A stretch of DNA of 38,278 nt from Poseidonia sp. (GTDB lineage Archaea > Thermoplasmatota > Poseidoniia > Poseidoniales > Poseidoniaceae). The stretch spans positions 8,561 through 46,838 of the forward strand of contig JAYQAK010000002.1 of the NCBI GenBank assembly GCA_038136695.1, written 5' to 3'. The translations under genes were made by a program, and so were the position numbers. How positions within the stretch are numbered: position 1 is the stretch's first letter; each line of letters opens with the position of its first letter. This document shows positions 7,217 through 34,600 of this stretch, in pieces. The notes under the pieces were generated by a model that was given only the letters and a program-made list of their open reading frames with translations, did not search any database and was not told the origin of the DNA.

Positions 7217-7316
7217 CTTCAATTCAGCCAGCCAAAGGCCGTCAAATCGGTATGCAGAGTCGGCAGAGCGACGAGATTTTAGGTGGTCAAGGCCTCCGGG
7301 TAGCGTAGGTGACACC
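7217..7316. promoter_or_regulatory. Divergent promoter region between the thioesterase gene and the giant surface-protein operon
   Basis: This is a 100-nt gap between divergent starts. A weak TATA-like GATTTTAGG lies at about 7275-7283, 34-42 nt upstream of the ATG at 7317. The assignment is by position only. Confidence 0.25.
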
Positions 7317-10300
7317 ATGCCAACCGAATCGCCCCGCAAAACAACGCCGATTTTTCTGATGCTTTTGATGCTGCTCGCACCCTTTGCGTCTGCCAACGTG
7401 ACCACGTTTTCGAACGGAGATGCGTCCGTTGACGTCGAAATTCGCGATGGAAACGATCTCGCCAATCTCGTTGATGGAAGCATTGACCTCCCGGACGGTG
7501 AAACCGTCACCAGTGCCTCGATGAAGGTCTCAACCACCATGGTGAATCACGGTGCGCATGTTCGCATTGATACGGACACCATGCCTCGTGTGTGGAACCC
7601 GGACTACAACAACCAACTTACGGAGTTCTCCGATGAGGCGTTGTTCACCTTCGAGGACGGCAGCGATGCCACGCCGGTTTCGCTGGCCGCCGAAGGGTTC
7701 CTGACCGATTTCGAAGGTACAGATGGCGGTTTTGCGGACGCCACCGACCCCAACACCATGCCCTCAAGCGGTGTTGCTTGGCAACACGGTGCGCTGACCA
7801 GCGCCGACACCCCTTCCAGTTGCGCCTCGGGTGCAGATTGCTGGGGGACGAACCTCGCTGACAGCAACTACACCGACGACCACGACACCGACAACAACGG
7901 CATCGGCGAGGCCTTCCAAGTGGCCATGTACAGCGCAGAGTTGTTTGTTGACCCGCTGCTCAAGGACAAAACCGCTTACTTTGATTCGTGGCACAACCTT
8001 GAGACTCGCGCCGGTTCACAAGCCAACTCCAAGCGGTTTTCAGACTGTGCTTACCTTGAAATCCGCGAATCCCCCAACCCCGGCTTCCCGCCCGGTTACA
8101 ACCCAACGGATTTCTCCTACCTCCCCATTGACCAAACCTCCAACGGCTTGACGTTTGGTACGAACTTTGCACAAGGCGGTGGCGGTTTTTCCGGCACCAA
8201 CGGGCGCATCGACTCCGCTTGCAGCGGTTTGCTCAACGGTAGCAATCCACACTATGGCTTGGCGGGCACGTCCACCACCCCACAGAACCCCTCCGGTTGG
8301 ATCACGCTTGAGGTCGACCTCACGGATTTCATTGACAAGTACGTCCAAATTCGCTTCGTGATGCACCACACGGCCCACCCCGGCATGAACCTTGACGACA
8401 ACATGTCCGGCTGGTACGTCGACAACTTCCGCCTGGGTGACCTACTCCCTCAGAGTGCCAGCATGACCGTTCGGGGCATGACGCCATCGGTGTTGGGAGG
8501 CGATAATCATCCAAACGGCTACGGCATCCTCACGCTCGAAGCCGAAACCACGACCTCCGCAACCCTCTCGGTGGACGTTCTTGACACCAACGGGAACCTC
8601 ATCTACGGGAAAGACGGAAGTGCCATGGCAGGTCTTCGCGGCGATATCATCGAATTGTGGAACATCGACACGCGCCAATACCGAGCGGTCAATCTGAAAT
8701 TCAACTTTGATTCTGGACCGGACCGTCTCTCGACGCCGGTTCTTCACGGATTCAGCATCGGTTCCCGGGTCGGGACCGGATTCAATTACTCCTCCTTTGG
8801 GCCTTCCTCCGTCGATAACGGCGTTTGGTCGACCATGGGCGGTGGGTTCCCGATGATCTACACGCCCGACCTCCGGCTAACCTCCTTCTCGCCACCGGTT
8901 GAACGGAGCAAGTTCAGTTACCCCATCACCTCGATCACACCCTACATTCAGGACGATTGTTCCGAGTCGCCAAGCATCGAGATCACACCGGTCGGCTCCA
9001 CCACGCCCGTGAACGTTACCGATGGGGCCAAGAGCGTCTTTGATGCGCCCATGTTCGGATTTACTTCGGTCACGGCCTACCAGGGCCCTTGTGACGTTGG
9101 TGGCATTTGGTTTGACCTTGAGTTTGGTCATCACGCAGAACACATGCGCATCGACGTCGCTGACGACGGAGATGTCGACTACGGCTACCTTGAGCCGGCC
9201 TTTGACATGTTTGGGCGCCAAACCACCTTCGTCTCCAGCACCGTCAATCAGGTGAACTACGCTGCCGATTCCGCCACGCTCACCCTTGATTTGAACGGTG
9301 AGGCCAGCGGCGGGGTGTTCATGCTTCCCGAAGGCGCCGAAGTGTCTGCTGCCGACATTTCCTTTGACCAAGTGAGCATTCGTTCAAACTCCGACCCGCA
9401 AGAGGGCTTCAAGCTCTCCTTGATGGCCGGTTCGCAATCCGTTGAGTTGGGCGACATGCCCAACGCCAGCGTGTTGTTCCCCGAATCCCTGACGCCTCCA
9501 ATGGACTTCAAAGGCGCCTTGAATTCCTTGCTGAGCAACCCCTCCGTGGCTGGAACGCACGAGGATGCCTTCGGTCGATACTGGGTGAAGTTCAGGTTCA
9601 TGGTGGACTCTCCCAACGCTTCTTCGGGTACGACGGCCAAGTTGGTCAACTTGGACGTGGTCTACAACTACTCGACCACGTTGGGCTCCAGCGATGGCTT
9701 GGACATTGAATTGAACCAAGGTGTTGCCCTGTGGACCGGTGGCGCCACCGCCACCGTCCCCGTAGCCGTCTACACCGACACCGGTGGAGGCGTGCTGCTC
9801 AGTGACCTGAGCGTGTCGTCTTCAACAGGATACGCCAACACCATTTCGTTCACTGACAACCCGGTGGGTCTGTATCCAAACGGTGAGATTTACGAAGTCG
9901 TGACCACGCACACGGTCGACCCGCTGACCGGAACCTCGCTCTCCGAAGCGTGGTTGACGTTCGAGTCGCCTGGCGGCTTCATCAAGTTCTCATGGAGCGA
10001 TTTCATGTCGTTTGCCGAAGCGAGCGATGAGCACAACCACGTCACGCTGGAGTCCACATCCTCGGCCACGTCGATCACCAACGGATACGAAATCACCTGG
10101 CACTTCCGCGTGAATCCCACCTGGGACGACACCGAAGCCGTCCGCGTCTATGCGGGCCTCACGACCGCCAACAACATCAACGGACTGCCCGACGCCGTGC
10201 TGCTTGACCCTGCGGTTGGCAACGCCGTCGAAAACGACGCAGGCATCACGATGTTCCAGTTGCAGAACAGCATCGGTGTCGAACAAGCGTTGACCGGTGC

Positions 10301-15522: not shown

Positions 15523-16608
15523 ATGTTGTCATCTCGCCGTTGGTCCGTTTTGGTGCTGATGTTGATGGTTCTCTCCTTCGCTCCGCCGGTCGGCGCTCAA
15601 GTGCCCACGGCACCGGGTGTGGAAATCGATTGCGACAACAAGCAACCTGAACTTGACGTCCACCCTTTGAACTCGCCCGTGGTTGAAATCACCTGCACGG
15701 TCAAGAACCCCTCCTCCTTCCAGGAATCGATCAACGTTGAGAAAGAATGGGATGGCATTGAAGTCGACATGATGCTTGAGGAGGACACCTTTGACCTTGG
15801 GCCTGACGAAGAGGAAGATTTCCTCGTCACCTTTACGGGGCAAACCCGCCTCTCCTCTTCGCTGTCCTACGACTTCACCCTCGTTGCAACCGTGACCAAC
15901 GTCGGCATGCTGGACTGGCCCGAGGGCTTGTCCTCCAACGCAACCGTGAGCGGTGATTTGAACATCGCCACCTTTGGCATGGTGGACCTCGACATCTCCG
16001 ACAAGAGCACACGGACCATGCAGAAGAGCGATGAGGTCAAAATTTCCTTCCAGTTCCAAAACAACGGCAACGACGACGACAACATCAGGGTCTCCATCAC
16101 GAACGCTGGCGTCCTCGAGGAAGCAGGCTTCACCTTCCCTGGCGGCACCTTTGTGTCGGAAAACGTTGCAGAGGATAGCATTTCCACCGTCCGTGAACTG
16201 ACGGTGCGTGCACCTTCCGATGTGGCGCAGGACGAACGTTTCCAACTGATCTTCCAAGCCGAGAGCCAAAACGATGAGGAAGCCCCCGTCAGTGAACTGA
16301 GCATTTCTGTTCAACTCGAGGCCGGCAACACGGCAGGTGGCCTGGGCGGCGGGCTTGAAGAAGTCGACAAAGACACCGTCGTGCTCTACGGCAGCATCGG
16401 TGCAGCCGTCCTGTTCGGCCTGATTTTTGTCCTTGCTTTGGCGAAGGCGCTCCGTCGAAAAGCCAACGCACAGCCGATGTATGTCCCACCCGTTGACGTT
16501 GAGGATGAGCCGGAAGAGGAAGAATTTGATTTCTCGGAACTTGATGATTTGTTCACCGAGGACGAGGGCGGCGAAGATGACTTCGATGCGGTCTTTGCAG
16601 ACCTGTGA
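15523..16608 (+). CDS. Secreted, C-terminally anchored surface protein with CARDB-like beta-sandwich modules
   Basis: Signal peptide WSVLVLMLMVLSFAPPVGAQV. C-terminal TM VVLYGSIGAAVLFGLIFVLALA followed by KALRRK and an acidic tail (EDEPEEEEFDFSELDDLFTEDEGGEDDFD). This is the same topology as the 1,961-aa protein. Confidence 0.7.
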   Translation: MLSSRRWSVLVLMLMVLSFAPPVGAQVPTAPGVEIDCDNKQPELDVHPLNSPVVEITCTVKNPSSFQESINVEKEWDGIEVDMMLEEDTFDLGPDEEEDFLVTFTGQTRLSSSLSYDFTLVATVTNVGMLDWPEGLSSNATVSGDLNIATFGMVDLDISDKSTRTMQKSDEVKISFQFQNNGNDDDNIRVSITNAGVLEEAGFTFPGGTFVSENVAEDSISTVRELTVRAPSDVAQDERFQLIFQAESQNDEEAPVSELSISVQLEAGNTAGGLGGGLEEVDKDTVVLYGSIGAAVLFGLIFVLALAKALRRKANAQPMYVPPVDVEDEPEEEEFDFSELDDLFTEDEGGEDDFDAVFADL

Positions 16609-16707: not shown

Positions 16708-16729
16708 TGTTCCCCACGGAGTGTTTTTC

Positions 16730-17521
16730 ATGTTGGGTCTTGAAGGAAAAACAGCCTTTGTCTTCGGGGTGGCCAGTGAAGACTCCATTGCATGGGCGAT
16801 TTGTCAGCAGTTGGCAGCCGCTGGAGTTACCCTCTATCTGGGGTATCAGAAGCGATTCATGAGCCGTGTGTTCCAGCTGAAAGACCAACTGCCTGCAATT
16901 GGAGGGTTCTATCCTTTGGACGTTGCCTCCGACGCTACCACCGCGGAATTCTTCACCGCTTTTGCAGCCGAGCATCCGGGCAAAAAGGCCGATATCCTGA
17001 TTCACGCCATCGGCTTTGCCCCCCGCTCCTGCTTTGACCGACCGATTCTGTTCGTTGAGGACGACGACATCAACACGGCGATGACCATCTCGGCCAATTC
17101 ACTTCAGCGTTGCCTCAAACATGCCCTCCCCTACCTCAACCCGGGCTCGTCCACGGTGACCTTGACGTACGCTGCCTCCACGCGATTTGTGCCAAGTTAC
17201 GGTATCATGTCGATGGCAAAAGCCGCCCTGGAATGCTGGACACGGGAATTGGCTTGCCATCTCGGCCCGGAAGGTCATCGCATCAACGCCATTTCATCAG
17301 GCCCCATCCGCACCATCGCCGCCAGTGGAATTCCAGGATTTGATCGCATTTTGGACCACGTTGAGGCCAACGCCCCGCTTCGTCGAAACGTCAACCAGGA
17401 CGACGTCGCCGGTGCAACCTTGTGGCTTTCAAGCCCGCTGGCATCGGGCGTCACCGGCCAGTGCATCTACGTGGATGCTGGATATTCCATCACGATGGTT
17501 CCCGAGAGCATCATGAATTGA
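16730..17521 (+). CDS. fabI: Enoyl-[acyl-carrier-protein] reductase, FabI type (SDR)
   Basis: The listed start at 16721 is GTG; the ATG at 16730 gives MLGLEGKTAFVFGVASEDSIAWAI, matching the FabI N-terminal GxxxxxSIA motif. The catalytic Y-x6-K is YGIMSMAK. INAISSGPIRTIAASGI and VYVDAGYSI are near-identical in pattern to E. coli FabI (VNAISAGPIRTLAASGI ... HVDGGFSI). Confidence 0.9.
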   Translation: MLGLEGKTAFVFGVASEDSIAWAICQQLAAAGVTLYLGYQKRFMSRVFQLKDQLPAIGGFYPLDVASDATTAEFFTAFAAEHPGKKADILIHAIGFAPRSCFDRPILFVEDDDINTAMTISANSLQRCLKHALPYLNPGSSTVTLTYAASTRFVPSYGIMSMAKAALECWTRELACHLGPEGHRINAISSGPIRTIAASGIPGFDRILDHVEANAPLRRNVNQDDVAGATLWLSSPLASGVTGQCIYVDAGYSITMVPESIMN

Positions 17522-17530
17522 GGTGACGAC

Positions 17531-20500
17531 ATGACGCTGACGACCGAAGACGGCAAAGCCTGCGAGGGCATCGAACAGGGACCGTTCGAACCCATCGCCG
17601 TCATCGGTGTAGGGGCGTTGATGCCCGACGCTCACGAGATTGACGCCTTTTGGCAAAACCTGCTCGACGCCAAAGTCAGCATCAAACCCTTGCCAGAAGG
17701 TCGCTGGCCCGGTCCTGTTGACCATTTTTGGAAGGAAGGTGGCCCTGGTGCCCACACAGAGGGGTTCACCTACGCCAAAATCGGAGCGTTGGTCACCGAT
17801 GCCGAATTCGATTGGCGCCGTTGGCGACAACCTCCCGGAACCCTTCCACAAATCGACCCCTGCCAGCAGTGGGCCGTCACGGTCTCGGCCGATGCCATCG
17901 AGCACGCCGGCTACGATGGAGACTCCAAGGACCTTGATCGCTCCCGAACCGGGGTGGTGTTCGCCAATGCCCTCGGAGGTGAAAACCGAAACATGTCCAA
18001 CATTCGCGTGTGGTCCAACCACACCACCGAACTGGCAAAGCAACACGGTCTGCCGGCCGACCAAGCCGAGGCCTTCACGACCGCTGTTCTCGAAGGTACG
18101 CCGCGGGTTGACGAAGACACCATGCCGGGTGAATTGGCCAACGTGGTGTCCGGGCGCGTGGCCAACCTCCTCGATTTGCAAGGGCCGAACCATGCCATGG
18201 ATGCGGCGTGTGCGTCGTCCATGGCTGCGGTGCTCGATGCTTGCCGATTGCTGCAGACGCGGCAAGTGGACGTCATGCTGGCGGGCGCTTCGGACCGAAC
18301 CATGGACCCTGCTACGTTTGCGAAATTCTCCGCCATCGGCGCCCTTTCACCAAGCCACTCCTCTCCGTTTGATGCTCGAGCGAACGGGTTCGTCATGGGC
18401 GAAGGAGCCGGCGTGTTGGTCCTGAAGCGATTGAGCGATGCCATTCGAGACGACGATGCCATCTTCAGCGTCATTCGAGGCGTGGGGGGCTCTTCCGACG
18501 GCCGAGGAAAAGGCATCACGGCGCCGAGCCAACGCGGTCAAATCCAAGCGATCGCACGGGCGTATGCTCAAGCGGGATACCCCGCATCAAGCGTTGAACT
18601 CGTCGAAGCCCACGGCACTTCCACCAAAGTGGGGGATGCAACGGAACTTTCCACCCTGTCTCGTCTCTGGACCGGCGTCGAGGGAACGGGCAAGGTGGCG
18701 GTGGGTTCCATCAAGTCACAAATCGGCCATCTCAAGGCGGCCGCTGGCATTGCTGGTATCATGAAGGCCGTCATGGCCCTGCACCACCGCACCATACCTC
18801 CCAGTGCCAATTTCGAAACTCCCAATCCAACCGTGGATTGGAACAACATTCCGTTCTTCGTCCCAACACAACCGCTCGAGTGGCCTCGGCCAAGCGACCA
18901 CCCAAGGCGTGCAGGTGTCTCAGCGTTCGGTTTCGGTGGAACCAATTTCCACTTGGCTCTCGAAGGTTACGAGCCCGACTACCACGCCCCGTTGGCCTCC
19001 CAATGGGACGCCCGATGGCAAGCCTACAGCGGCCAATCCAGCGCGGCTGCACCGTCCATTTTCGATGGTGCGGTTGAGGCAACGATGACGCACGAGGCGC
19101 TCAAGGCCATCGAGGGTGGCGTTCTGCTACTCTCGGGGGATTCCTTGGAAGAGGTGGCGGCACAACTCGGTGCCATGTCGTTCAGCGGCCCGTTGTTTGA
19201 CGACGACCCGCAGGGGCGACGCCTCTCCGAAGCCTTGCAAACCGCCAGCGGAGCGTTCGAGGCGACCGCCCCCGTTCGGTTGGCCGTGGTGGCCACATCG
19301 TGGGCCGAATTTTCCAAGCGTCAAACGCTGGCCGCCCAAGCCCTGGCTGACAAAGACAAATGGGGGTTCCTGCAGGCTCAAGGGGTGCTGGTTACCGACC
19401 AGCCGGCCCTGCCAAGTGAAGCAAAAGCCGTTCACATGTACCCCGGTCAAGGCAGTCAATACGTGGGCATGACCGCCGATTTGGTTCAGCGCTTCACGGC
19501 CCCAGCAGAGGTTTGGGCGCAAGCCGACGAGACCATGATCGACGTTCTCGACGGCGAAACGCTCTCCAGTTTCGTGCTTCGTTCCTCGCTGACCGCTGAG
19601 GAATTGAAAGAGGCCGAGCACAAACTCAAGCAAACCGAATACACCCAGCCGGCCATGCTCACGGCCGATTTGGCCATTGAACGAACGCTGCAAAGTTTCG
19701 GCCATCAACCCGACATGGTGGCTGGGCATTCCTTGGGCGAGTACGCTGCCCTGATGTCGTCGGGTATCCTCGATATGGACGGTGCCTTGCGAGCAGCTGC
19801 CGCCCGTGGCACGGAAATGGGTGCCGTGGAAATTGACGACAAAGGCCTCATGGCCAGCGTGACGGCTCCGTACGAAGAGGTGGAGGCCATTCTCGACGCC
19901 ACCGATGGCTATGTCATCGCCGCCAACAAAAACTCACCCAAAATGACGGTCATCGCCGGCGAGACAGCGCCCGTGCGGGCAGCGATGGCGGCGTTTGAGG
20001 AGAAGGGTTTCAACTGCGTGGAGTTGGCTACCTCGCATGCCTTCCACTCGCGTATCGTGGCGCCAGCCAATGAACCGCTGCGCCGTTTCCTGGAAGGCCT
20101 CGAGATTCGATGGCCCTCCGTCCCCATCACGGCCAACGTTGACGGTATGTTCTATCCGATGAAGGGCGAGGACTCCAAGACCGATATCCTGGTCAAATTG
20201 GCGCCACAAATGGCGTCATCCGTCGAGTGGACCAAACAGATTGAGACCATGTACGAGGCTGGAGGGCGTCTCTTTGTCGAAGTTGGTCCGAAGCGAGCCC
20301 TCACGATGTTTGCCATGCAGATTCTCGAAGGCCGCCCGCACGTGCCGGTGATGACGAACCACCCCAAGCAAGGCGGTGTTGCCAGCCTGTTCACCGCCAT
20401 CGGTGCGATGGCCATCGCCGGTCGTCCGCCCGCTTGGCCTGCGTTGGATTCGCCTGCACTTCAGGACGGGTTCAAAGCCGGTCCCATCGAGGCTCGCATG

Positions 20501-23500
20501 GCTTCATCCCTCAGTGCTTCTTCCACCAGCGCTGAATTGGAGGCTTTGCGTGTCCGTGCTCGCCCTCTGCCCGGAAGCGGCGCCAGTGGTCCTTCGGTTC
20601 CACCGACCTCCATGGTTCATGTTGCGAACATGGACGACGAGTACGCACGGGAACGTTCCATTCGGGCGTACGTTGGCGACCGTGTGGCCAAGTTCAGCGG
20701 CTATCCTGCCTCCTTCTGTCACGGGAACGTGGCTTTGGTCGAGGGCTTGGGCTTGACGCCTGCTCAGGTGCAACAGGTGGTGGCGACCATCGCCTCGGAA
20801 TCGACCACCGACCCGGAATTCGACGGAGCGTCGGCCGTGACGGCTGGCGATCTCACTCGCTGGGTGCGTGAGCCACCAGCGACCTGGAGGCCGATGGCCA
20901 CGGTCACCGCTCCTCCCTCGCTCAAAGCGGTTGCCGTGCAGACCGTCTCTGCGCTCCAGCCCACCTCAACGCGCGATGTTGACCCGTACGTGGTCACGGG
21001 TATTTCCTTGGGTTTGCCGGGCATGGAACGGGTGTTCTCGGAGGACGCCTTTGAGAAGTTGGTGCGTGGAGAAACGTGCATCAGCGAGGTCTCGGATGAA
21101 TACAAGCAACGTTTGCTGGACAAGAACATCGTGCGCCTCATCAAAGGCCGTGACGGTTCGGTGAACATGGACCAAGCCACGGTGTTCGGTGACATTCCAC
21201 AACTGGCTGGCCTCAAGGGCGCCTTTGACTTGGCAGAGGAATTCGGCATCGATCCAAAAGCCATCGTGGCATGGGACATCAGCACGCAGTTGGCGGTTGC
21301 TGCCGGCTTGCTGGCGTTGCGCGACGCCGGCATCCCCCTCACACCCGTTGAGCAGGTGGGCAAGGGCGGTCTGCGCCTGATTCGAAACTGGCAGGTGCCG
21401 CAGATACAACGCGAGCGCACCGGTATCGTGTTTTCCTCTTGTTTCCCCGGCTTGCAAATGGCGTCCAAGCACGCCAAGAACAACGGCGACGACGGCGAGG
21501 GACGGTTTGACCGTCGCTACCTGTTCCAAACCCTCAACATGGGCCACTCTCAATTTGCCCAATACACCGGTATTCGGGGACCAAACACCACCATCAACCT
21601 CGCCTGCGCCTCGGCCACGGCAGCGTTTGGCGTTGCCGAGGATTGGTTGGACGCCGGCCGAGTTGACCGTGTGGTCATCATCAGCGGTGACGACGTGACC
21701 GGCGATGACCTCTGGGAATGGATTGCCGGCGGCTTTGCAGCCTCGGGTGCAGCCGCTACCAACAACATCGTCGAGGAAACGGCGTTGCCCTTTGACCGCC
21801 GTCGTAACGGTCTCATTTTGGGCATGGGTGCAGCGGCCTTTGTCGTCGAGCGCCACTCCGAGGCAGAACAGCGAGGTGTGCAACCAATCGCCGAATTCTT
21901 GGGTTCAACCACCGCCAACTCAGCCTACCACGGTACGCGGCTTGACGTGGAGCATGTGGGTTCCGTGGTCAACGGGTTCATCACCGACATGGAACAACGA
22001 TGGGGCCTCAACCGTCACGAAATGGCCTCCGACACCGTCTTTTTCTCCCACGAGACCTACACGCCAGCCCGTGGAGGCTCCGCACAGTCTGAAGTGAGGG
22101 CGTTGCGCGAGACCTTTGGGGAATCCACCAACAAGCTGGTCATCGCCAACACGAAAGGCTTCACCGGCCATCCAATGGCGGTGGGTATCGAAGACGCCAG
22201 CATGTTCTACGGCTTGCTCACGGGTCGTATTCCCCCGATTGCCAACCACAAAGAGAAGGACCCAGAGCTCGGCGATCTCAACCTCTCGACGGGAGGAGAT
22301 TACCCTGAACTCAAGTACGGTCTGCGCTTTGCGGCAGGTTTTGGCTCGCAAATTGCGCTCTCGCTCATGAAGAAATGGCCGGTTGAGGGCGACCGTATCA
22401 ACGGGGCAAAACTCCTCGCTTGGGCACGCACGCTGGCAGGTACAGACGACGTGGTGATGCGAATTCTCCAAAACAAACTCGTTGCATATGTCAACGGGGA
22501 CGACAACCTCCACGGCGGGGTCCAAGGCGATGCCTGGCCACCAACTCAAGATTGGGAAGGCCAACCCTCCGTGGTTGAACAGCCCGCCGCTCAGGTGATT
22601 GAGCCGGCTGCACAAACCGCTCCCGCTGAACCGAAACCGGCACCAACGTCTGCACCAGCAGCGGCCCCAGCCGTCGAAGCAAGTGGGGATATGGTGGCAA
22701 CGGTGATCGAGGTTGTGGTTCATCACACGGGCTATCCTGCCGACTTCGTTGAGTTGGACCAAGACCTGGAAGGCGAGTTGGGCATTGACACCGTCAAGCA
22801 AGCAGAAATCATGGCCGACATCCGAGAACGCTTCGGCTTGCCGGTGGACGAAGACTTCGTCCTTGCTGACTATCCCACCTTGAATCACATGATCGGTTAC
22901 ATTCAGCGCATGACCGGAGGCGCTCCAGCCGCCTCCGCACCCGACCCGGCTTCTGCGCCAACCCAGCCCGCCCACGTTGCACCCTCCACACCCGAACCGG
23001 TCGTAGCGCCACCTGCGGCTGCGCCTGCCGTTGTCGATGATGCTGCCATGACCGAAACGGTGGTTGCGGTGGTCGTCCAGCACACCGGATACCCTGCCGA
23101 TTTCATTGAACTCGACCAGGATTTGGAAGGTGAATTGGGCATTGACACCGTCAAGCAAGCCGAGATCATGGCCGACATCAGAGACCGATTTTCTCTTCCC
23201 GTTGACGAAGACTTTGTTCTCGCAGATCACCCCACGCTGAACCACATGATCGGCTACATTCAGCGTATGCAGGGAGGTGGAACAGCGACGCCAGCAGCGG
23301 CACCTGCGCCCACGCCCCAGGCCGCCACGCCTTCCTCGCCACCGGCAACCGCATCGCCCGCTCCCTCTGCACCAGCACAAACCGGGCCCAGGCCCGACAT
23401 TGAGTCGGTGCTGGTCGAGGTGGTCGTCAGCCACACAGGCTACCCTCCAGATTTCATCGAGATGGACCAAGATTTGGAAGGTGAATTGGGCATTGACACC

Positions 23501-26344
23501 GTGAAACAAGCTGAGATCATGGCAGAAATTCGAGACCGCTTCGCTCTGCCTGTGGACGAGGACTTCGTTCTCGCCGACCATCCCACCCTGAACCACTTCA
23601 CAGCCTACATCGTCAAGATGACCGGGGATTCGCCCCCGCCAGCCGAGGCATCGTCATCGGTGGGCAAAGCGACGGTCGCTTCGGTTGCTTCGGATTTGGC
23701 CCCCTCCTCGATTCAAGCCGGTACGCGCCGGTGGCAAGTTGAGATTGAGGCATGTCCTGGCGTACCCGCTCCCCTTGAGGTCAAGGGCACCGTCGTGGTG
23801 TCCGATGACGGTTGGGGCATCGCTGAAGCCTTCTGTCAACGCATGGAAGCACGCGGCTTGAAGGCGGTTCGAATCGGCTTTGAAACCCGAATTCGGGACG
23901 CCTCATCCATGGACGAAAACGGTCGAACCGTCTACCGGGCCGACCCTGAACAACCCGAGCATCTTCAGTGGATTGCTCAACAACTCGGTTCCTCAACCAT
24001 CGCTGGCCTGGTTCACATGGCACCGATGAAACTTGCCTCAGAGCAATGGGAAGAAGACACCCATCCTTCTTCGCAAATCGCCCTTGCAGCCCACGGCTGG
24101 TTCGGTCTGCTCAAGGAGTTGAGCCCGTTGATGTCCGCCGAGGCTCCTGGATTCATCGCTTCCGTGACCGCTCTGGACGGTCGTCACGGCAACATCGGTG
24201 ACCGTTTCAACGCCGTGCAGTGCGCCGCCAGCGGCGTGACCAAATCCTTCGCCTTTGAACGAACAGACCTTCGCTGTCGGGCCCTGGATCTGCATCCAGA
24301 GCACGTGTTTGACGAGGCCTCTGCGGCCGCCATGGTCGAAGAGGATGTCTTTGGCTTGGGCGGCGAAGTCGAAATCGGACTTGACCGAGACGGACGACGA
24401 TGGGCCCTGGTCGCTTTTGCCGAGGATGTGGTCGACGAGGTCCAGCCGTTGACGGCGGAGGACACGTGGCTGGTCTCCGGCGGTGGCTCAGGCGTGACCG
24501 CTGCCTCCGTCATTGGCGTGGCCAAGGCTTCGCCAAAGGCAGGCGCTCACTTTGTCTTGCTTGGGCGCTCTACGCTCATCGAGTCAACCTCTGCGTGGAT
24601 TGATTGGGATGAGGCTCAACTTGAGCAAGAAAAGAACGAACTCCGCCAGCGGCTCGTCGATGCGAGCGAGCGTGGAAAAGTCACCATGGTGGAGTGGAAC
24701 AACGCCTGGCAGCGATTCACGCGAAGCAGGGACGTGTACCTCACCCTCAGCGCCATTGAAGCCACCGGCAACCACGCCTCCTACCATTCGGTTGATGTCA
24801 TGGACCACGAGGGTTTGTCGGCGTTGGGAGCGTCCCTCGGACGACCGATCACGGGCATCGTCCATGGAGCGGGCCTGGAGGATTCCAAACTGGTGGGCGA
24901 CAAAGGCTACGACGTGTTCGACCGTGTCGTCCGTGTCAAGGTCGATGGCTGGCGAGCCTTGCTGGGAGCCGTTCGAGCGTCAGGAAGAGAGAACCCAACC
25001 TTTGCTTGCTGTTTCACCAGCGTTGCGGGTCGCTTTGGGAACGGTGGACAAACCGACTACGCTGCGGCCAACTCCGTGCTGGATGCCGAAATGGCTCGGA
25101 TCACCGCCACCGCAGAAGGACGGGGTGTTGCCATCGGTTGGACGGGCTGGCGCGACGTCGGCATGGCCACTCGCGGCTCCATTGAAGCGGTGTTCGCTGC
25201 GGCCGGCATCGAAACCCTCGCCGTTGAAGACGGTGTGGCCATTTTCGTCGCTGAAGCGCTTCAGGGAGGCAAGCGACGGGTGCTGGGGTGCGGGTCTCTT
25301 GGACTGATGGACCGTTTCTCCTCGTTCCGTGAGGCGCCACTGAAACTTCCAGCAGAGATGTCGGCCATGATGGCTGACCCTGCACGGTTCCCTTTCATGG
25401 ACAAGGTGGTGTCACTGGAGGAGAGGCGTCACATGGTTTCGCAAAGCACGCTGTCAACCGAAGACCATCCGTTCCTGGTTGACCATGCCATCGAGGGCGT
25501 GCCCTATCATCCCGGTGTGATGGCGCTCGAGATGTTTGCACAAAACGCCTTGTTGCTTCGACCCTCAACTTGCCTGGCAGGTTTCGAAGAAGTCACCTTT
25601 GGGTTACCCGTGAAGCTCATGAAGGGGCCGATGACGGTTCGGGTTGACGCTCAAGTTGAGCGGTCCGAGGGCGACATGACGTGGGTTCGATGCCGCTTGG
25701 TATCGGACCTTACCAATTCGAAAGGGGAGGTCTTTGGGGAACGTGACCACCACACGGCGTTGGTTCGATTGGTCGAGAAATGCGACGACATGTGCCCGTT
25801 CTTGCAACGCGAGGTAGATGAATTGCCGGCGATTGGAACCCCGCCATCCGGTGCCTTGTTGCACCCAGCATCGTTCATTTACGACCGGTATTTCCACGGT
25901 CCTCGTTTCCAATCCCACGGTGGTGTCCTGAGGGGTGTAGGCGAAGGGGATGTCATGGGCATTGACGGGGTTGCCTTGATGCGACACCAACTCCCCGAAA
26001 CCGACCAATTTGCCGTGGAGCGGGAGGGGGAACAGGTGCTCCTTGAAGCCCTCCCGATGCTCATTGAGGCGGGCTTCCAAAACGCTGGTCTGGTGGCGAT
26101 GGAAACCTTGGGCTTGAGCAGCCTGCCCGTCGGAATCACCTGGTCGACCATGCTGCGTGTCCCCGAAGCCAACGAAGCCCTTCGATTGCGCAGCGTCCAA
26201 ACCGGACAGCATGACGACGGCGTTACCGTTCACGATGTGCTTGTGGTTGGTGAGGACGATGCCCCGGTGATGGCGTTGAAAGGTCTGCAGTTGAAGGCCA
26301 TGGCAACGGTTGAAGACGGTCAGCGGTTCTCGCTGGACCGATGA
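17531..26344 (+). CDS. Type I multidomain fatty-acid/polyketide synthase (PfaA-like 'secondary lipid' synthase); domain order KS-AT-(degenerate carrier-like)-KS-ACP-ACP-ACP-KR-DH
   Basis: A single 2,937-aa ORF. The ATG at 17531 lies 9 nt after the fabI stop, with GAGGTGA 7 nt upstream. Its stop overlaps the next gene's start (ATGA at 26341-26344). See the per-domain entries for motifs. No ER, TE, CLF or FabA-type DH domain recognised. Confidence 0.92.
   Translation: [2937 protein letters not shown]
17585..18966 (+). other. KS1: ketosynthase domain with an intact Cys-His-His triad
   Basis: DAACASS (Cys227, nt 18209-18211), [11 protein letters not shown] (His361), [12 protein letters not shown] (His400), C-terminal [12 protein letters not shown]. 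It also has the PUFA/HglE-style insert ending [14 protein letters not shown]. Confidence 0.9.
19426..20330 (+). other. AT: acyltransferase domain, predicted malonyl-specific
   Basis: [21 protein letters not shown] (Ser734, nt 19730-19732) and the HAFH motif (residues 836-839, nt 20036-20047). HAFH is the signature generally associated with malonyl-CoA rather than methylmalonyl-CoA (YASH) selection. Confidence 0.85.
20630..20866 (+). other. Degenerate carrier-protein-like segment between AT and KS2
   Basis: [33 protein letters not shown] parallels the ACP repeats ([30 protein letters not shown]), but reads LGLTP where LGIDT/LGxDS is expected. It therefore has neither the Asp nor a hydroxyl residue at the attachment position. 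Confidence 0.3.
20981..22375 (+). other. KS2: second ketosynthase domain, also with an intact Cys-His-His triad
   Basis: [13 protein letters not shown] (Cys1359, nt 21605-21607), FFSHETYTP (His1507), [13 protein letters not shown] (His1547). The Cys-to-His-to-His spacing of 148/40 aa compares with 134/39 in KS1. Because the active-site Cys is retained, it is not a CLF-type (Cys to Gln) domain. Confidence 0.8.
22691..23620 (+). repeat. Three tandem carrier-protein (ACP-like) domains separated by Ala/Pro-rich linkers (period 351-357 nt)
   Basis: Repeat unit: HTGYP(A/P)DF(V/I)E(L/M)[20 protein letters not shown](D/E)IR(E/D)RF.[11 protein letters not shown](Y/H)PTLNH. The motif residues are Thr1754 (nt 22790-22792), Thr1873 (23147-23149) and Thr1990 (23498-23500). 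The copies differ at many synonymous sites, for example caa/cag, gac/gat, ctg/ttg, ggc/ggt. Confidence 0.85.
23724..25305 (+). other. KR: ketoreductase (structural pseudo-Rossmann subdomain plus catalytic subdomain)
   Basis: Catalytic subdomain: [15 protein letters not shown] (NADPH Gly-rich loop, from nt 24464), [27 protein letters not shown] (Tyr2510, nt 25058-25060). It is preceded by [13 protein letters not shown], a pseudo-Rossmann segment. Confidence 0.8.
25381..26341 (+). other. DH: PKS-type (double hotdog) dehydratase
   Basis: The HxxxGxxxxP motif is exact: [10 protein letters not shown] in [16 protein letters not shown] (His2652, nt 25484-25486). The remaining roughly 290 aa run to the C-terminus. 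It is not a FabA-like dehydratase/isomerase. Confidence 0.7.
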
Positions 26345-27120
26345 CCAACGGTGAGAACATGGACGGCATCGTCCAACACACGCCTCCGTTGAAGCACGAC
26401 GGACTGCTGGTTCTGTCGGCGCCCCTGCACCACCACCTGCCCGGTGACGTGCCTCTTGCTGATGCCAACGAGGTGGCGACCTTCGTTACACAGAAGCGCT
26501 TGCATGAACACTTGAGTGGACGCTGGTTGCTGGGTCAAGCCTTGCATCGCTGGGGCATTGACGACCTGTCGTGTCTCGAGGTCCATCGCACCGAGCATCG
26601 AGCACCGTACCTCGACTACATTCAGGGGGTTTGGAAACGAACACCGCTGCCCCATGTCTCGATCGCCCACAGCCACAGCCGCGTGTTCGTGGCGCTTTGC
26701 CCCCCAAGCCACCGCGTGGGCATCGACGCCGAACCGCTGACGCGAACACTCGCATCAAACGCCTACGACATGATGGCCAAAGGGCGGGAACTCGCTGCTT
26801 TGCATGAACACCCGGCATCGGCCATGGTGTCCTGGACGGCCAAGGAAGCGGTGCAAAAATCGCTCGGTCTCGGGATGCACCTCAATCCACGAGAGATTGA
26901 AATTCCAATTGGTTTAGAGGAGTGCGAAATTTCAATTGGAAATTCAAAAATTCAATTGGTATATTGGAGAGAAAATGACTACCATTTATCCCTCGCGATG
27001 ACCCCCGCAACACCGCCGGAAGCGACGCCGGAGGACGACTTGCTCGAGGCCACTCGTCGGGCGATGGCTGCTCAACCGGATTGGGGCGTGGGATGCAAAA
27101 CCCAGCGAAACAACGCCTGA
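26341..27120 (+). CDS. 4'-phosphopantetheinyl transferase, Sfp/PfaE type
   Basis: The ATG overlaps the synthase stop (ATGA). Motifs: VGIDAEPL (Asp129) and WTAKEAVQKSLGLG (Glu169). At 259 aa it has the length of a two-lobe Sfp-type enzyme. It contains an anomalous AT-rich patch at about 26895-26970. Confidence 0.8.
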   Translation: MTNGENMDGIVQHTPPLKHDGLLVLSAPLHHHLPGDVPLADANEVATFVTQKRLHEHLSGRWLLGQALHRWGIDDLSCLEVHRTEHRAPYLDYIQGVWKRTPLPHVSIAHSHSRVFVALCPPSHRVGIDAEPLTRTLASNAYDMMAKGRELAALHEHPASAMVSWTAKEAVQKSLGLGMHLNPREIEIPIGLEECEISIGNSKIQLVYWRENDYHLSLAMTPATPPEATPEDDLLEATRRAMAAQPDWGVGCKTQRNNA

Positions 27121-31636: not shown

Positions 31637-34600
31637 TCACTTTCTACGGAACTCATCGAAGACGGAGCTCGACGGTGGACGAGGCATCGTTTGTGGGCGT
31701 TGAACCATGCCACGTTGCGGCAGTTCTGTGATTCCATGATGCTCCCGTATCTCGGCCAACCTGCGCTCTCGACGGAGGGTTTCCTTGGAGTTCTTGGCCC
31801 GTCCTCGTATCATCAAGGCACCCATGAGAACAAACAACACCAAGCCTGCAAGACCGGCTTGCAACATCACGTTGTCCGTCACCATGGTGAGCAGAGAACC
31901 TTCGGCCTCATCGAGAAGAACCACCGGTGCATTGGAATCTTGTGCTTCGATGGTGACCGTTACGGTATCCATCGGGTAGTTCGCTCCAGGCTCACGAGCG
32001 GACAGCAACAGGTTGTGGGTGCCCATGACCTTCGCCGTTCCCGAAAACGTGACCGTTTGTGTTGTCCCTGTGTTGGACGTGAAGGTCAGGAAATGATTGG
32101 AGGTCTCACCTGCGATGCTGGTGGTCGCTTCCCAGTCCACGTTGGCGGCGAAGGCCGTGCTCATTTGCGTGCTGATGGTGCAGGTGAACGAGAACCATCC
32201 ACTCGCCGCTAAATCCACGGTGATTTTGGTCGGGGCGCAGGTCATCGATGCTTCGGCTGAGTTGCGAGACGCATCGTTGGGCCAGTGGTCCGGCCGATAG
32301 GCGCCAAGGCTGGCGTTGTCGCCAAAGCCATCGCCGTCCGTATCGGTGTGCTGGGTGCGCTGGTCAGGGAAATCGTCCGCGGCATCGGCCCAGCCGTCAC
32401 CGTCTTGATCAAGACAGCCGGTCAGGCCGCCTTGGGTTGAATCGCCAGGTTCCGCAGGACAGTCGTCACCGTCGGTTCCAGCGGCTTCATCGCCGTAGCC
32501 GTCACCATCGCTGTCGAACCATTGCGAGGCGTCACCGGGCCAGAGGTCGTTGATGTCGCTTGCTCCGTCTTCGTCCGTATCGGTGCAGCCAAAGACATCC
32601 AGCGTGGATGTTCCTGCCTCGTTTGGACAGGCATCGGGTTGCGAGCCGTTGGGGTTGTCACCGTAGCCGTCGCTGTCGGCGTCTGACCACTGGGTCGCAT
32701 CGCCGAGGAAGTCGTCGTTTTCGTCGGAGGTCCCATCGCCGTCTTCATCCACGCAGCCAAACCGGTCGACCGTCGAACCACCGGCTTCGGTGGGACATGC
32801 ATCCGGTTGCTGTCCTGTTGCGTTGTCACCAAAACCATCACCGTCTTGGTCGCTGAACTGTGTCGCATCGTCGGGGAAGGCATCGGCTCCGTCACTGGCG
32901 TTCCATCCGCTTTCGTTTCCAACTGGAGGGCTTGGGTTGGAGACGCCATCGCCATCGGAGTCCAAGCAACCAAGGCGGTCTTCGGTGGAGGTTCCGGGCG
33001 TGAACGGGCAAGCGTCTTCCACATCGTCGAACCCGTCTGCGTCGGTGTCGTTCCATCGGGTGGGGTCGCTGGGGAAGGCATCAGAGGCGTTGGAGTAGCC
33101 GTCGCCGTCGTCGTCGACACAACCATAGCGGTCCTCGGTGGACGTTCCCGCTTCACCCGGGCAAGCATCCGGTTGCAAGCCGCTGGCGTTATCGCCGTAG
33201 CCGTCCCCGTCTTGGTCCAACCATTGGGTGTCCAAGTTGGGAAGAGCATCGATGGTGTCGTCCCAACCATCGCCGTCGGCGTCAGGGCAACCGAGGCGAT
33301 TGCCTTGGGTCGAATTGCCCGCATCGTTGAGGCAAGAATCAGGGTTGACACCGCCGGGGTTGTCGCCGTAGCCGTCACCGTCGGTGTCGGCCCACTGCGT
33401 TTGTTCGTCGGGATGGCTGTCCTGGCTGTTGGCCCATCCGTCCTCGTCCGCGTCTGGGCAACCAAACGTCCCGTTTTGCCACGATTCACCGTAGGTGTTC
33501 ACACAGGCATCCGGTAACGAACCGCTTGGGTTGTCGCCGTAGCCGTCGCCGTCGGTATCGTTCCATTGGGTTGAATCGGTCATGAAGGCGTCCGCTCCGT
33601 TGGCCGTGGTCCAGCCGCTGTCAGGGTCGGAATAACCGTCACCGTCTTGGTCGGGGCACCCTTTCCGATCGTGCATCGAGGTACCAAACAGGGTGGGACA
33701 ATCGTCATCCAACCCGTCGTCGTATCCGTCGCCGTCGTTGTCCCCCCATCGATTCGGGTCGTTGGGGTAGGCGTCGGCACCGTCATCCGTGGTCCACAAG
33801 GCGTCCGGGTCGGAATAGCCGTCACCGTCGGTGTCCGGACAACCTCGCCGGTCGTTGGTTGAGTTGCCGTTGACCAGCGGGCAAGCATCGCCGTTGGTTC
33901 CCGTCGGGTTGTCGCCGTAGCCGTCCCCGTCCGAGTCAAGCCATTGGGTGGCGTCGTTGGGAGCCACATCCGCTCCGTTGGCGGTGGTCCAGTTGGCGTC
34001 GCCATCGGAGGAACCGTCGCTGTCGGTGTCGGCGCAACCGAAGCGGTCGCGCGTGGAGGTTCCACTGGTTGAGGGACAGGCATCGCCTTGGTAGCCCGTC
34101 ACTTCATCGCCGTAACCGTCACCGTCGGTGTCGGCCCACTGGGTGCTTTCGCTGGGGAAGGCGTCGTCAACGTCGGCGTATCCGTCACCGTCCGTGTCCG
34201 TGCAGCCCAAGCGTCCGGCCTCGGTCGAGGTTCCAAACTGCGTGGGACAGGCATCCGGATTGTTTCCGCTGGCGTTGTCGCCATAGCCGTCGCTGTCACC
34301 GTCCGACCACTGGGTTGCATCGGACGCAAAGGCATCGGCTCCGTTGGCCGTGGTCCACAACACGTCAGGGTCGGAGTACCCGTCGCCGTCCGTGTCGGCA
34401 CATCCGTAACGGTCCTGTGTTGAGGTGCCGCTGCTGGTTGGACATCCGTCACCGGTGGTGGCAGGAGGAGGGTTGTCACCGTACCCGTCTCCGTCGCTGT
34501 CCACCCACTGCGTGTCATCGGTGGGGAACGCGTCGGCTCCGTTGGCGGTGGTCCATCCGCTGTCTGCGTCGGAATAGCCGTCGCCGTCTTGGTCGGGACA

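What the first reader, a model, noticed from the sequence alone, without database searches (positions are those of the whole stretch)
22691..23620. All three tandem carrier domains read GIDTV: Thr replaces the phosphopantetheine-accepting Ser
Seen in sequence:
- Each of the three ACP-like repeats has LEGELGIDTVKQAEIM. The position that is Ser in the canonical (D/H)S(L/I) motif at the start of helix II is Thr, encoded by ACC at nt 22790-22792, 23147-23149 and 23498-23500.
- No Ser lies anywhere in or next to the motif.
- The three copies differ at many synonymous sites but keep the protein sequence. They are therefore old duplicates under purifying selection, and the Thr is conserved rather than a sequencing error.

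Established knowledge: carrier proteins of FAS, PKS and NRPS systems are primed on a conserved Ser.

Inference, three possibilities:
- The co-encoded PPTase (26341-27120) may be adapted to phosphopantetheinylate Thr.
- These domains may be primed differently.
- They may act without a prosthetic group.

I have a vague recollection of GIDTVKQAE-like motifs in other large synthases but cannot verify it. This may therefore define a wider unstudied family rather than a one-off.
Basis: partly seen in the sequence, partly recalled or inferred. Interest (0 to 1): 0.75.

Follow-up and report, generated by a model that had tools for sequence, protein, structure and literature searches.

The report
Threonine-type acyl carrier domains
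A giant fatty-acid/polyketide-type synthase of a marine archaeon has threonine in all three carrier domains where carrier proteins normally have the serine that holds the phosphopantetheine arm; the same swap is conserved in hundreds of related synthases in bacteria and archaea, nearly always beside their own priming enzyme, which points to an apparently undescribed threonine-linked form of this cofactor attachment.

Summary
ORF 17531-26344 encodes a 2937-aa PfaA-like synthase: KS-AT-KS-3xACP-KR-DH. Each ACP reads LEGELGIDTVKQAEIM, with ACC (Thr) at 22790, 23147 and 23498. Sequence alignments to solved ACPs place this Thr on the DSL serine. An AlphaFold model (pLDDT 95.6) makes it the first residue of helix II. 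ACP1 contains no serine at all.

This is not a one-off. GxDTVKQAE carrier domains occur in Marine Group II archaea, Myxococcota, Chloroflexota, Actinomycetota, Acidobacteriota, Elusimicrobiota, Spirochaetota and others. The profile column holds Thr in 745 domains and Ser in 183. All four Thr codons are used.

The gene cluster matches the uncharacterised "Type R secondary lipid synthase" of Shulse & Allen (2011). That paper never mentions the Thr.

A Sfp-type PPTase with intact catalytic motifs lies downstream in 59 of 63 loci and is fused to the synthase in others. Two MGII lineages, nested among Thr-type relatives, have reverted to Ser.

Best explanation (inferred, not shown): the Thr hydroxyl is phosphopantetheinylated by the cluster's own PPTase. 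E. coli ACP S36T, by contrast, is the standard non-modifiable mutant.

Verdict: a new variant of a known kind, decidable by one mass-spectrometry experiment.

The parts
16721..17521 (+). FabI-like enoyl reductase (SDR), immediately upstream of the synthase; the presumed trans-acting ER
   Evidence: PF13561 adh_short_C2, E = 1.2e-68. Its stop codon lies 9 nt before the synthase ATG. It holds the same position in 28 MGII loci and 2 Elusimicrobia loci.
17531..26344 (+). 2937-aa PfaA-like iterative type I synthase: KS1-AT-KS2-ACPx3-KR-DH
   Evidence: Pfam hits to KS, KS_C, Acyl_transf_1, PP-binding x3, KR and PKS_DH_N. The best NCBIfam match is TIGR02813 PfaA at 845.9 bits, below the 1010.1 cutoff. 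Catalytic residues are intact.
17588..18817 (+). KS1 domain (aa 20-429), active-site Cys227 in DAACASS
19430..20329 (+). Acyltransferase domain (aa 634-933), GHSLG Ser734 and HAFH (malonyl-type motif)
21605..22171 (+). Core of the second KS-like domain: Cys1359 (NLACASA), His1467, His1547. This is the position called CLF in Type R clusters, but here the catalytic triad is kept.
   Evidence: (second ketoacyl-synt stretch; ACP_syn_III 1355-1391).
22691..22915 (+). ACP1 (aa 1721-1795); Thr1754 codon ACC at 22790-22792; no Ser anywhere in the domain
23048..23272 (+). ACP2 (aa 1840-1914); Thr1873 codon ACC at 23147-23149
23399..23623 (+). ACP3 (aa 1957-2031); Thr1990 codon ACC at 23498-23500
24476..25156 (+). 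Ketoreductase domain (GGGSGVT nucleotide-binding motif from aa 2316; Pfam KR aa 2399-2542)
25391..25663 (+). PKS-type dehydratase, N-terminal part (aa 2621-2711), with HxxxGxxxxP His2652
26341..27120 (+). Sfp-type 4'-phosphopantetheinyl transferase (259 aa). Its ATG overlaps the synthase TGA (ATGA).
   Evidence: PF01648 E = 3.8e-9, with weaker 4PPT_N and AASDHPPT_N hits. Motifs: VSIAHS (P1b'), GIDAE, WTAKEAVQK. A family profile hits Sfp 1qr0 at E = 1e-19. AF2 pLDDT 90.3; the top Foldseek hit is the Sfp-PCP complex 4mrt, E = 8.9e-10. Overlap shown.

Best explanation
The three domains are working acyl carrier domains of an iterative PfaA-like ('Type R') fatty-acyl synthase. The residue that receives the 4'-phosphopantetheine arm is a threonine instead of the usual serine.

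Proposed mechanism:
- The Sfp-type PPTase encoded immediately downstream transfers phosphopantetheine from CoA to the Thr O-gamma at the N-terminus of helix II of each ACP. Its start codon overlaps the synthase stop codon, and in some relatives it is fused to the synthase C-terminus.
- The holo-ACPs then shuttle malonyl and growing acyl chains between AT, the two KS domains, KR, DH and the upstream FabI-like ER.
- The tandem copies raise throughput, as in PUFA synthases.

Shown here: the position of the Thr, its conservation, the linkage to a PPTase, and intact catalytic residues throughout.

Inferred: that the Thr is actually modified, that the neighbouring PPTase does it, and what the product is (probably a saturated or monounsaturated fatty acyl chain).

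Speculative: the Thr may insulate these carriers from housekeeping AcpS-type PPTases or AcpH-type hydrolases.
For: 1. Thr sits on the Ser column and at the start of helix II.
2. No alternative Ser exists. ACP1 has none.
3. Selection acts on the amino acid. Thr occupies the column in 745 domains and uses all four codons. dN/dS between the window's repeats is 0.03-0.15.
4. The only regular alternative at the column is Ser, the other hydroxyl residue.
- Two MGII loci (L029, L036) read GVDSVKQAE. In a KR-DH tree they nest inside an otherwise all-Thr MGII clade with all-Thr bacterial outgroups.
- One protein mixes a Ser-type and Thr-type ACPs in one array (P0038).
- Degenerate ACP-like domains lose the whole motif instead of keeping Thr.
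5. A PPTase is present in 59 of 63 loci that extend at least 5 kb downstream, at a median 2.9 kb from the last ACP. It is fused to the synthase in 6 loci and in 17 of 136 representative proteins.
6. The PPTases keep GxDxE and WxxKE(A/S)xxK invariantly. They match Sfp by profile (E = 1e-19) and by fold.
7. KS1 Cys, KS2 Cys/His/His, AT Ser and DH His are all intact, so the enzyme needs a thiol-bearing carrier.
8. The ER-synthase-PPTase operon and its TBP/TatD neighbours are syntenic across MGII, so this is a vertically kept, functional locus.
Against: - No experiment here or in the searchable literature shows a phosphopantetheinylated Thr.
- E. coli ACP S36T is used as the standard mutant that cannot be modified by 4'-PP (PMC3340395). 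A Thr at this site is therefore not automatically a PPTase substrate.
- I found no residue in the linked PPTases that distinguishes Thr-linked from Ser-linked enzymes, or from Sfp.
- A secondary alcohol is a poorer, more hindered nucleophile (general chemistry).
Confidence: 0.7

Rival explanations
1. The Thr-type domains carry no prosthetic group. They act as structural or docking scaffolds, as the Ppant-less mitochondrial ACP of Plasmodium does, and acyl chains are handled as CoA thioesters or on a carrier encoded elsewhere.
For: - Natural Ppant-less ACPs exist. P. falciparum mACP has Phe in place of the Ser (PMC8547962).
- E. coli ACP S36T is not modified.
- Archaea are generally regarded as lacking ACP-dependent fatty acid synthesis (own knowledge).
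Against: - In the Plasmodium case the substitution is Phe/Cys/Gly, and the PPTase and FAS enzymes were lost together with the Ser.
- Here only Thr or Ser occurs in intact domains.
- A catalytically intact PPTase is linked or fused in almost every locus.
- All thioester-handling active sites are intact.
- Tandem multiplication of a carrier (2-6 copies) is the hallmark of throughput-limited holo-ACPs.
- Truly degenerate ACP-like domains in the same arrays lose the motif.
Confidence: 0.08
2. The domains are primed, but not as proposed. Either another residue takes the arm (for example the invariant Thr of TGYP or of PTL), or a different prosthetic group or donor is attached, as in CitD/MdcC-type carriers with 2'-(5''-phosphoribosyl)-3'-dephospho-CoA.
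For: - Two other Thr residues are invariant in the family alignment: T13 and T63 of the 75-aa core.
- The chemistry at the canonical site is unverified.
Against: - Homology and the AF2 model put Thr34, not T13 or T63, at the helix II N-terminus that PPTases address.
- Ser replaces exactly this Thr in the revertant lineages.
- The linked transferase is a canonical Sfp-type PPTase with the Mg/CoA-binding motifs.
- No CitX/MdcG-type enzyme was seen among the window's ORFs.
Confidence: 0.07
3. The Thr is modified only poorly, or by a promiscuous PPTase encoded elsewhere. The substitution is then a nearly neutral or regulatory down-tuning of priming, not a dedicated Thr-specific system.
For: - No PPTase specificity determinant was found.
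- The same PPTase subfamily sits beside both Ser-type (L029, L036) and Thr-type (L026, L032) MGII synthases.
Against: - Neutral drift would give a Ser/Thr mix, since the two are one nucleotide apart. Instead Thr is fixed in essentially all domains of hundreds of arrays across at least 8 phyla.
- The near-obligate cis-linked or fused PPTase argues for a dedicated partner.
Confidence: 0.1
4. Artefact: a sequencing or assembly error, a misaligned motif, a pseudogene, or a contaminating bacterial contig in an archaeal bin.
For: None found.
Against: - The ORF is an uninterrupted 2937 codons.
- The same three ACC codons are backed by dozens of independent assemblies.
- HMM, pairwise and structural alignments agree.
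- The locus sits between archaeal TBP/TatD genes, in synteny conserved across MGII MAGs.
Confidence: 0.01

Closest known systems
'Type R' secondary lipid synthase gene cluster (Shulse & Allen 2011, PLoS ONE 6:e20146; PMC3098273)
   Same: - One pfaA homolog with KS-MAT-CLF-ACP(3-6)-KR, followed by a PPTase gene.
- An ACC gene lies inside some clusters, as also seen in L001.
- The PPTase carries the P1b' motif hShxH.
- The taxa overlap: Acidobacteria (Solibacter), Elusimicrobia, Chloroflexi (Roseiflexus).
- Homologs named Roseiflexus sp. and Ca. Solibacter sp. carry GVDTVKQAE ACPs.
   Different: - The 2011 paper does not contain the words serine or threonine, lists no archaea, and leaves the product unknown.
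- In the window protein the 'CLF' position keeps a Cys/His/His triad.
- A PKS-type DH and an upstream FabI-like ER are present.
- I did not test whether KS phylogeny places it in Type R.
PfaA of bacterial PUFA synthases (NCBIfam TIGR02813)
   Same: - KS-MAT-tandem ACP-KR-DH order.
- Ala/Pro-rich linkers between the ACPs.
- A G-I-D-x-[IV]-K motif.
- A dedicated Sfp-type PPTase (PfaE).
- It is the best NCBIfam hit.
   Different: - PfaA ACPs read GIDSIKRVE, with Ser.
- The score of 845.9 is below the 1010.1 family cutoff.
- An extra KS is fused in.
- No PfaB, PfaC (FabA-type DH) or PfaD homologs are in the window.
E. coli ACP S36T mutant
   Same: Thr at the phosphopantetheine attachment position of an ACP.
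   Different: It is engineered. It is reported as not modifiable by 4'-PP and non-functional, and is used as an apo control (PMC3340395; PMC13343975). The natural Thr-type ACPs here are under strong purifying selection and have their own Sfp-type, not AcpS-type, PPTase.
Ppant-less mitochondrial ACP of Plasmodium falciparum (Ser to Phe)
   Same: A natural ACP homolog lacking the 'strictly conserved' Ser (PMC8547962).
   Different: There the replacement is non-hydroxyl (Phe; Cys or Gly in Toxoplasma), and the PPTase and FASII were lost. Here the replacement is Thr, and the PPTase and all synthase domains are kept.
Megasynthases with a built-in PPTase domain (fungal FAS alpha subunit; Pseudoalteromonas sp. 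DS-12 pfaC-PPTase)
   Same: Some family members carry the PPTase as a C-terminal domain of the synthase. The profile also hits the PPTase domain of yeast FAS alpha. The DS-12 case is mentioned.
   Different: In the window the PPTase is a separate gene whose start overlaps the synthase stop codon. In those known systems the target residue is Ser.

Membership tests
PP-binding carrier domain (Pfam PF00550) | Significant match to the family HMM | tested here: met
   Three stretches; single domains score 37.8-39.5 bits against a cutoff of 20.8.
PP-binding carrier domain (Pfam PF00550) | ACP-like helical bundle with the attachment site at the N-terminus of helix II | tested here: met
   AF2 pLDDT 95.6. 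Three long helices were called (2-13, 34-48, 64-74), and helix II starts at Thr34. TM is 0.8-0.87 to holo/apo ACPs.
PP-binding carrier domain (Pfam PF00550) | Conserved Ser as the phosphopantetheine acceptor ((D/H)S(L/I); PROSITE PS00012 requires Ser, from my own knowledge) | tested here: not met
   Thr in all three domains. Thr in 745 of 950 related domains.
PP-binding carrier domain (Pfam PF00550) | Actually carries 4'-phosphopantetheine | not testable with these tools
   Needs intact-protein MS or radiolabelled CoA.
Type R secondary lipid synthase (Shulse & Allen 2011) | pfaA homolog with KS-MAT-CLF-ACP(3-6)-KR | tested here: met
   KS-AT-KS-ACPx3-KR(-DH); definition.
Type R secondary lipid synthase (Shulse & Allen 2011) | Downstream PPTase gene with P1a x(G/D)xP and P1b' hShxH motifs | tested here: inconclusive
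   The PPTase lies at 26341-27120 and carries VSIAH, which fits P1b'. At P1a the window and most MGII sequences read HRAP/xRAP, which does not fit x(G/D)xP; the bacterial relatives read DGAP/SGAP, which does.
Type R secondary lipid synthase (Shulse & Allen 2011) | KS domain clusters with the Type R clade in phylogeny | not tested
   Reference Type R sequences (Koribacter, Solibacter usitatus, E. minutum, Roseiflexus castenholzii) could not be fetched. Indirect support: close homologs named Roseiflexus sp. and Ca. Solibacter sp., and loci from Elusimicrobia and Bryobacteraceae.
PfaA, PUFA synthase subunit (TIGR02813) | Score at or above the curated cutoff | tested here: not met
   845.9 bits against a cutoff of 1010.1.
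PfaA, PUFA synthase subunit (TIGR02813) | Partner genes pfaB/pfaC (KS-CLF-FabA-type DH x2)/pfaD in the cluster | tested here: not met
   No such domains among the window's ORFs. The ER is FabI-type.
Sfp-type (group II) PPTase | PF01648 match, plus the Mg/CoA-binding GxDxE and WxxKE(A/S)xxK motifs | tested here: met
   G127, D129, E131, W165, K168, E169 and K173 are invariant across 35 family members.
Sfp-type (group II) PPTase | Two-lobed pseudo-dimeric fold of about 230-260 aa | tested here: met
   AF2 pLDDT 90.3. The top 30 Foldseek hits are all Sfp, AASDHPPT, PptT, PptAb or PcpS (E down to 8.9e-10, TM 0.5-0.6). AcpS trimers match only half of the model.
Sfp-type (group II) PPTase | Transfers Ppant to the carrier's acceptor residue (here Thr) | not testable with these tools
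   Needs an in vitro or co-expression assay.

The most novel reading that the evidence does not exclude
O-phosphopantetheinyl-threonine is a natural, widespread cofactor linkage. On this reading a whole clade of PfaA-like ('Type R') synthases uses Thr-linked carrier domains primed by co-evolved Sfp-type PPTases. The clade includes the synthase that would be the only evident fatty-acid synthase in this conserved locus of Marine Group II archaea, among the most abundant planktonic archaea. The Thr would make these carriers orthogonal to housekeeping AcpS/AcpH enzymes.
Probability: 0.55. Interest if true: 0.85.

Novelty: new variant of a known kind. Interest (0 to 1): 0.72.

Why it matters
- **Challenge to a textbook rule.** The Ser acceptor of carrier proteins is treated as strictly conserved (for example). 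It underlies motif-based annotation such as PROSITE PS00012 and antiSMASH-type 'active ACP' calls, and it justifies S-to-T or S-to-A mutants as apo controls. A large natural family with Thr would show that the PPTase reaction extends to a secondary alcohol.
- **New tools.** It would supply PPTase/carrier pairs that may be orthogonal to Sfp and AcpS, which would be useful for labelling and pathway insulation. It would also flag hundreds of synthases that automated tools may call inactive.
- **Archaeal lipid biology.** It gives Marine Group II archaea a complete, vertically inherited, ACP-dependent type I synthase operon. This bears on the debate about bacterial-type fatty-acyl lipids in these uncultured archaea.

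Tried and rejected
1. **Literature.** None describes a Thr-type carrier or the MGII synthase. The two main MGII comparative-genomics papers discuss only fatty-acid degradation. The Beld et al. 2014 PPTase review was not held.
2. **PPTase specificity determinant.** Motif-by-motif comparison of 35 linked PPTases found nothing that tracks Thr versus Ser.
- The KEA/KES alternation is scattered.
- The two Ser-linked PPTases lack the P1b His (FSISTS), but two Thr-linked actinobacterial ones also lack it.
- The conserved MGII C-terminal tail is absent from some Thr-linked enzymes.
3. **An alternative acceptor Ser.** None exists; ACP1 has no Ser.
4. **Recoding or unusual code.** Rejected. All four ACN codons are used in at least 8 phyla. 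Catalytic residues that are standard Ser or Thr elsewhere in the same ORF (GHSLG, HGTST) read normally.
5. **Failed technical steps.**
- Single-sequence phmmer of the PPTase against PDB found nothing; a profile was needed.
- The RefSeq annotation of the Planobispora contig was not available.
- The first tree script timed out.
6. **Modelling a PPTase-ACP complex.** Not possible with the single-chain predictor.
Full report
**What is at the coordinates**

The finding lies inside a single 8.8-kb ORF, 17531-26344 on the + strand, 2937 aa. Pfam finds these domains in order:
- ketoacyl synthase (aa 20-429)
- acyltransferase (634-933)
- a second ketoacyl-synthase-like region around aa 1355
- three PP-binding domains
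- KR (2399-2542)
- a PKS-type dehydratase (2621-2711)

The best NCBIfam model is PfaA of PUFA synthases, at 845.9 bits, below its 1010.1 cutoff. A FabI-like enoyl reductase sits directly upstream (16721-17521; PF13561, E = 1e-68). Directly downstream is a 259-aa PPTase (26341-27120, PF01648) whose ATG overlaps the synthase stop codon in the sequence ATGA.

The window also encodes a TATA-binding protein. The closest homologs come from Candidatus Poseidoniales, i.e. Marine Group II archaea. The gene order TBP, TatD, an unannotated ORF (15523-16608), ER, synthase, PPTase is conserved across MGII assemblies, so the locus is genuinely archaeal.

**Checking the observation**

- **Codons.** Each lies in LEGELGIDTVKQAEIMA.
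- **Sequence alignment.** phmmer alignments to solved ACPs put the Thr exactly on the acceptor Ser. The matches are GVDSI/GIDSV in PigH and DVDSL/DIDSL in the Streptomyces ACP and AcpM.
- **Structure.** An AlphaFold2 model of ACP1 (pLDDT 95.6) has helices at 2-13, 34-48 and 64-74. Thr34 of the 75-aa core is therefore the first residue of helix II, the canonical attachment position. The model superposes on holo- and apo-ACPs at TM 0.8-0.87.
- **No alternative Ser.** ACP1 has no Ser at all. ACP2 and ACP3 have one and two, none conserved.
- **Age of the repeats.** They are 72-76% identical in DNA, with dN/dS of 0.03-0.15 and saturated dS.

**It is a large family, not a one-off**

- **Protein search.** A search with the ACP region returned 1005 hits. 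The top 120 hold 354 Thr motifs and 6 Ser motifs.
- **Genome scan.** The 79 loci kept come from these groups:
  - MGII archaea (Poseidoniaceae and Thalassarchaeaceae)
  - Myxococcota and Bradymonadia
  - Chloroflexota
  - Actinomycetota, including the cultured Planobispora takensis and an Amycolatopsis strain
  - Elusimicrobiota
  - Spirochaetota
  - Gemmatimonadota
  - Bryobacteraceae
- **Profile search.** Against 1.84 billion representative proteins, a profile gave 3905 hits at E <= 1e-10.
- **The acceptor column.** In 950 carrier domains from 256 retrieved proteins it holds Thr 745 times and Ser 183 times. The profile was built from Thr-type domains, so this ratio is not a prevalence. The Ser cases fall into three groups:
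  - classical PfaA (GIDSIKRVE)
  - a GIDSIKKAQ group
  - a Heimdallarchaeota homolog (GIDSVKVAE)
- **Codon usage.** All four Thr codons are used: ACG 114, ACC 88, ACT 20, ACA 13. Selection is therefore on the amino acid.
- **Split systems.** In bacteria the system is often split into separate genes. The order is acyl-CoA dehydrogenase, KS-AT, KS, a stand-alone tandem-ACP protein, KR-DH, sometimes acetyl-CoA carboxylase, then PPTase.

**Relation to what is known**

The architecture matches the 'Type R' secondary lipid synthase of Shulse & Allen 2011. That type is a pfaA homolog with KS-MAT-CLF-ACP(3-6)-KR followed by a PPTase gene. It was reported in Koribacter, Solibacter, Elusimicrobium and Roseiflexus, with an ACC gene inside the Koribacter cluster and an unknown product.

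- Type R PPTases carry the P1b' motif hShxH. The window PPTase reads VSIAH.
- Homologs named Roseiflexus sp. (P0271) and Ca. Solibacter sp. (P0351) carry GVDTVKQAE ACPs. All 389 motifs in that search were Thr.
- The 2011 paper contains neither 'threonine' nor 'serine', and no archaea.
- Source annotations for family members are generic, such as 'SDR family oxidoreductase', 'phosphopantetheine-binding protein' and 'hypothetical'.
- No NCBIfam model is specific for them.

So the cluster type has been catalogued, but as far as I could find the Thr acceptor has not been described. All ten literature searches were negative.

**How it most likely works**

Several lines point to phosphopantetheinylation of the Thr by the cluster's own PPTase.

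1. **The PPTase is almost always there.** It is present in 59 of 63 loci with at least 5 kb downstream, at a median 2.9 kb from the last ACP. It is fused to the synthase C-terminus in six loci and in 17 of 136 representative proteins.
2. **The PPTases look competent.**
   - GxDxE and WxxKE(A/S)xxK are invariant across 35 diverse members.
   - The family profile hits Sfp at E = 1e-19.
   - The AF2 model of the window enzyme (pLDDT 90.3) matches the Sfp-PCP complex, AASDHPPT, PptT and PptAb.
3. **Only Ser alternates with Thr in intact domains.**
   - Two MGII loci (L029, L036) read GVDSVKQAE with TCN codons, in ACPs about 71-75% identical to the window's.
   - In a KR-DH neighbour-joining tree they form one subclade nested inside an MGII clade of 28 Thr-type sequences, with all-Thr bacterial outgroups. 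Ser there is a reversal.
   - One bacterial protein (P0038) mixes one Ser-type and two Thr-type ACPs.
   - ACP-like domains that are clearly degenerate lose the whole motif.
4. **The synthase needs a thiol carrier.** KS1 Cys227, KS2 Cys1359/His1467/His1547, AT Ser734 and DH His2652 are all intact.

These facts fit a required hydroxyl acceptor. They do not fit a prosthetic-group-free scaffold. In the one well-studied Ppant-less ACP, that of the Plasmodium mitochondrion, the Ser became Phe and the PPTase and FAS enzymes were lost.

**Why a specialist should still be surprised**

E. coli ACP S36T is routinely used as the mutant that 'cannot be post-translationally modified by 4'-PP' and is non-functional (also used). 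A Thr acceptor therefore implies one of two things: these Sfp-type PPTases differ from AcpS in tolerating a beta-branched secondary alcohol, or they have adapted to it.

I could not find the adaptation. No motif residue separates Thr-linked from Ser-linked PPTases. The same MGII PPTase subfamily sits beside both Ser-type (L029, L036) and Thr-type (L026, L032) synthases. That pattern hints at dual Ser/Thr competence rather than strict Thr specificity. Any benefit of Thr, such as resistance to AcpH-type hydrolysis or beta-elimination, or insulation from housekeeping PPTases, is speculation.

**Limits**

- Nothing here demonstrates the modification. Mass spectrometry of a co-expressed ACP/PPTase pair, with T-to-S and T-to-A controls, would settle it.
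- The locus set from the genome scan was partly selected with a pattern containing DTVKQAE, so it is biased toward Thr. The Ser-type MGII loci were caught by the second, unbiased pattern.
- The tree is a quick NJ tree on 707 columns.
- Type R membership rests on architecture, the P1b' PPTase motif and taxa, not on a KS phylogeny with the original sequences. At the P1a motif the window PPTase reads HRAP, which does not fit the x(G/D)xP consensus given for these types.
- The product, and the role of the second KS, are unknown.

**Verdict**

The most likely mechanism is Thr-linked phosphopantetheinylation by the co-encoded Sfp-type PPTase (confidence about 0.7). I rate it a new variant of a known kind: PfaA-like tandem ACPs and Type R clusters with an acceptor residue that, as far as I could find, has not been described. 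Interest is about 0.7.

Noticed in passing
window 27031-27117 (PPTase aa ~231-259): MGII PPTases share a conserved C-terminal tail, TPEDxLLExTRxAM...PDWGVGCKTQR, with invariant W248, G251, C252 and T254. AF2 gives a helix at 230-244 and then a low-confidence tail. The tail is absent from bacterial family members and from MGII loci L026, L032, L029 and L036. Its function is unknown; it may be a docking or regulatory element.
   Followed up: partly
L029:9765-10532 and L036:11224-11964: The PPTases beside the only two Ser-type MGII synthases have Thr in place of the His of the P1b' motif (FSISTS/FSISTT against SIAHS). Two Thr-linked actinobacterial PPTases have Asp there, so this is not a clean Ser/Thr marker.
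   Followed up: partly
window 21605-22171 (aa 1359-1547 of the synthase): The second KS-like domain, labelled CLF in the Type R description, keeps a full Cys/His/His triad. It is therefore probably a second active ketosynthase, not a chain-length factor.
   Followed up: partly
window 7317-13202 (+): A 1961-aa ORF with no Pfam match. Its C-terminal end is conserved upstream of the TBP gene in many MGII loci. Its annotated start overlaps the 4HBT thioesterase ORF on the opposite strand (6713-7540), so one of the two starts is probably wrong.
   Followed up: no
window 31637-37219 (-): A 1860-aa protein with a subtilase (Peptidase_S8) domain at aa 275-617. The rest is unassigned.
   Followed up: no
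window 1813-3153 (+) and 6713-7540 (-): A biotin carboxylase (acetyl-CoA carboxylase-type) and a 4HBT-family thioesterase lie within 10-15 kb of the synthase. They could supply malonyl-CoA and release the product. Bacterial relatives carry ACC genes inside the cluster.
   Followed up: no
P0201 / L083:6001-15705 (Heimdallarchaeota MAG, MCY3414055.1): An Asgard archaeon encodes a 3234-aa homolog with the same KS-AT-KS-ACP-KR-DH order, Ser-type ACPs (GIDSVKVAE) and a fused C-terminal PPTase. An Arf/Ras-family small GTPase gene lies about 3 kb upstream on the opposite strand, with two genes in between.
   Followed up: partly
P0139, P0155, P0186, P0227 (bacterial/metagenomic homologs): Some arrays contain a truncated, degenerate ACP-like domain, usually last in the array but internal in P0155 and P0227. 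It keeps the TGYP helix I but has lost the whole G-x-D-T-V-K-Q motif. It looks like a pseudo-carrier with a structural role.
   Followed up: no
L078 (Methanobacteriota archaeon 0813_bin23): This archaeal-labelled locus carries a 3824-aa synthase with a fused PPTase. In the KR-DH tree it groups with bacterial sequences, not with MGII. It is either a separate transfer into archaea or a mis-binned contig.
   Followed up: no
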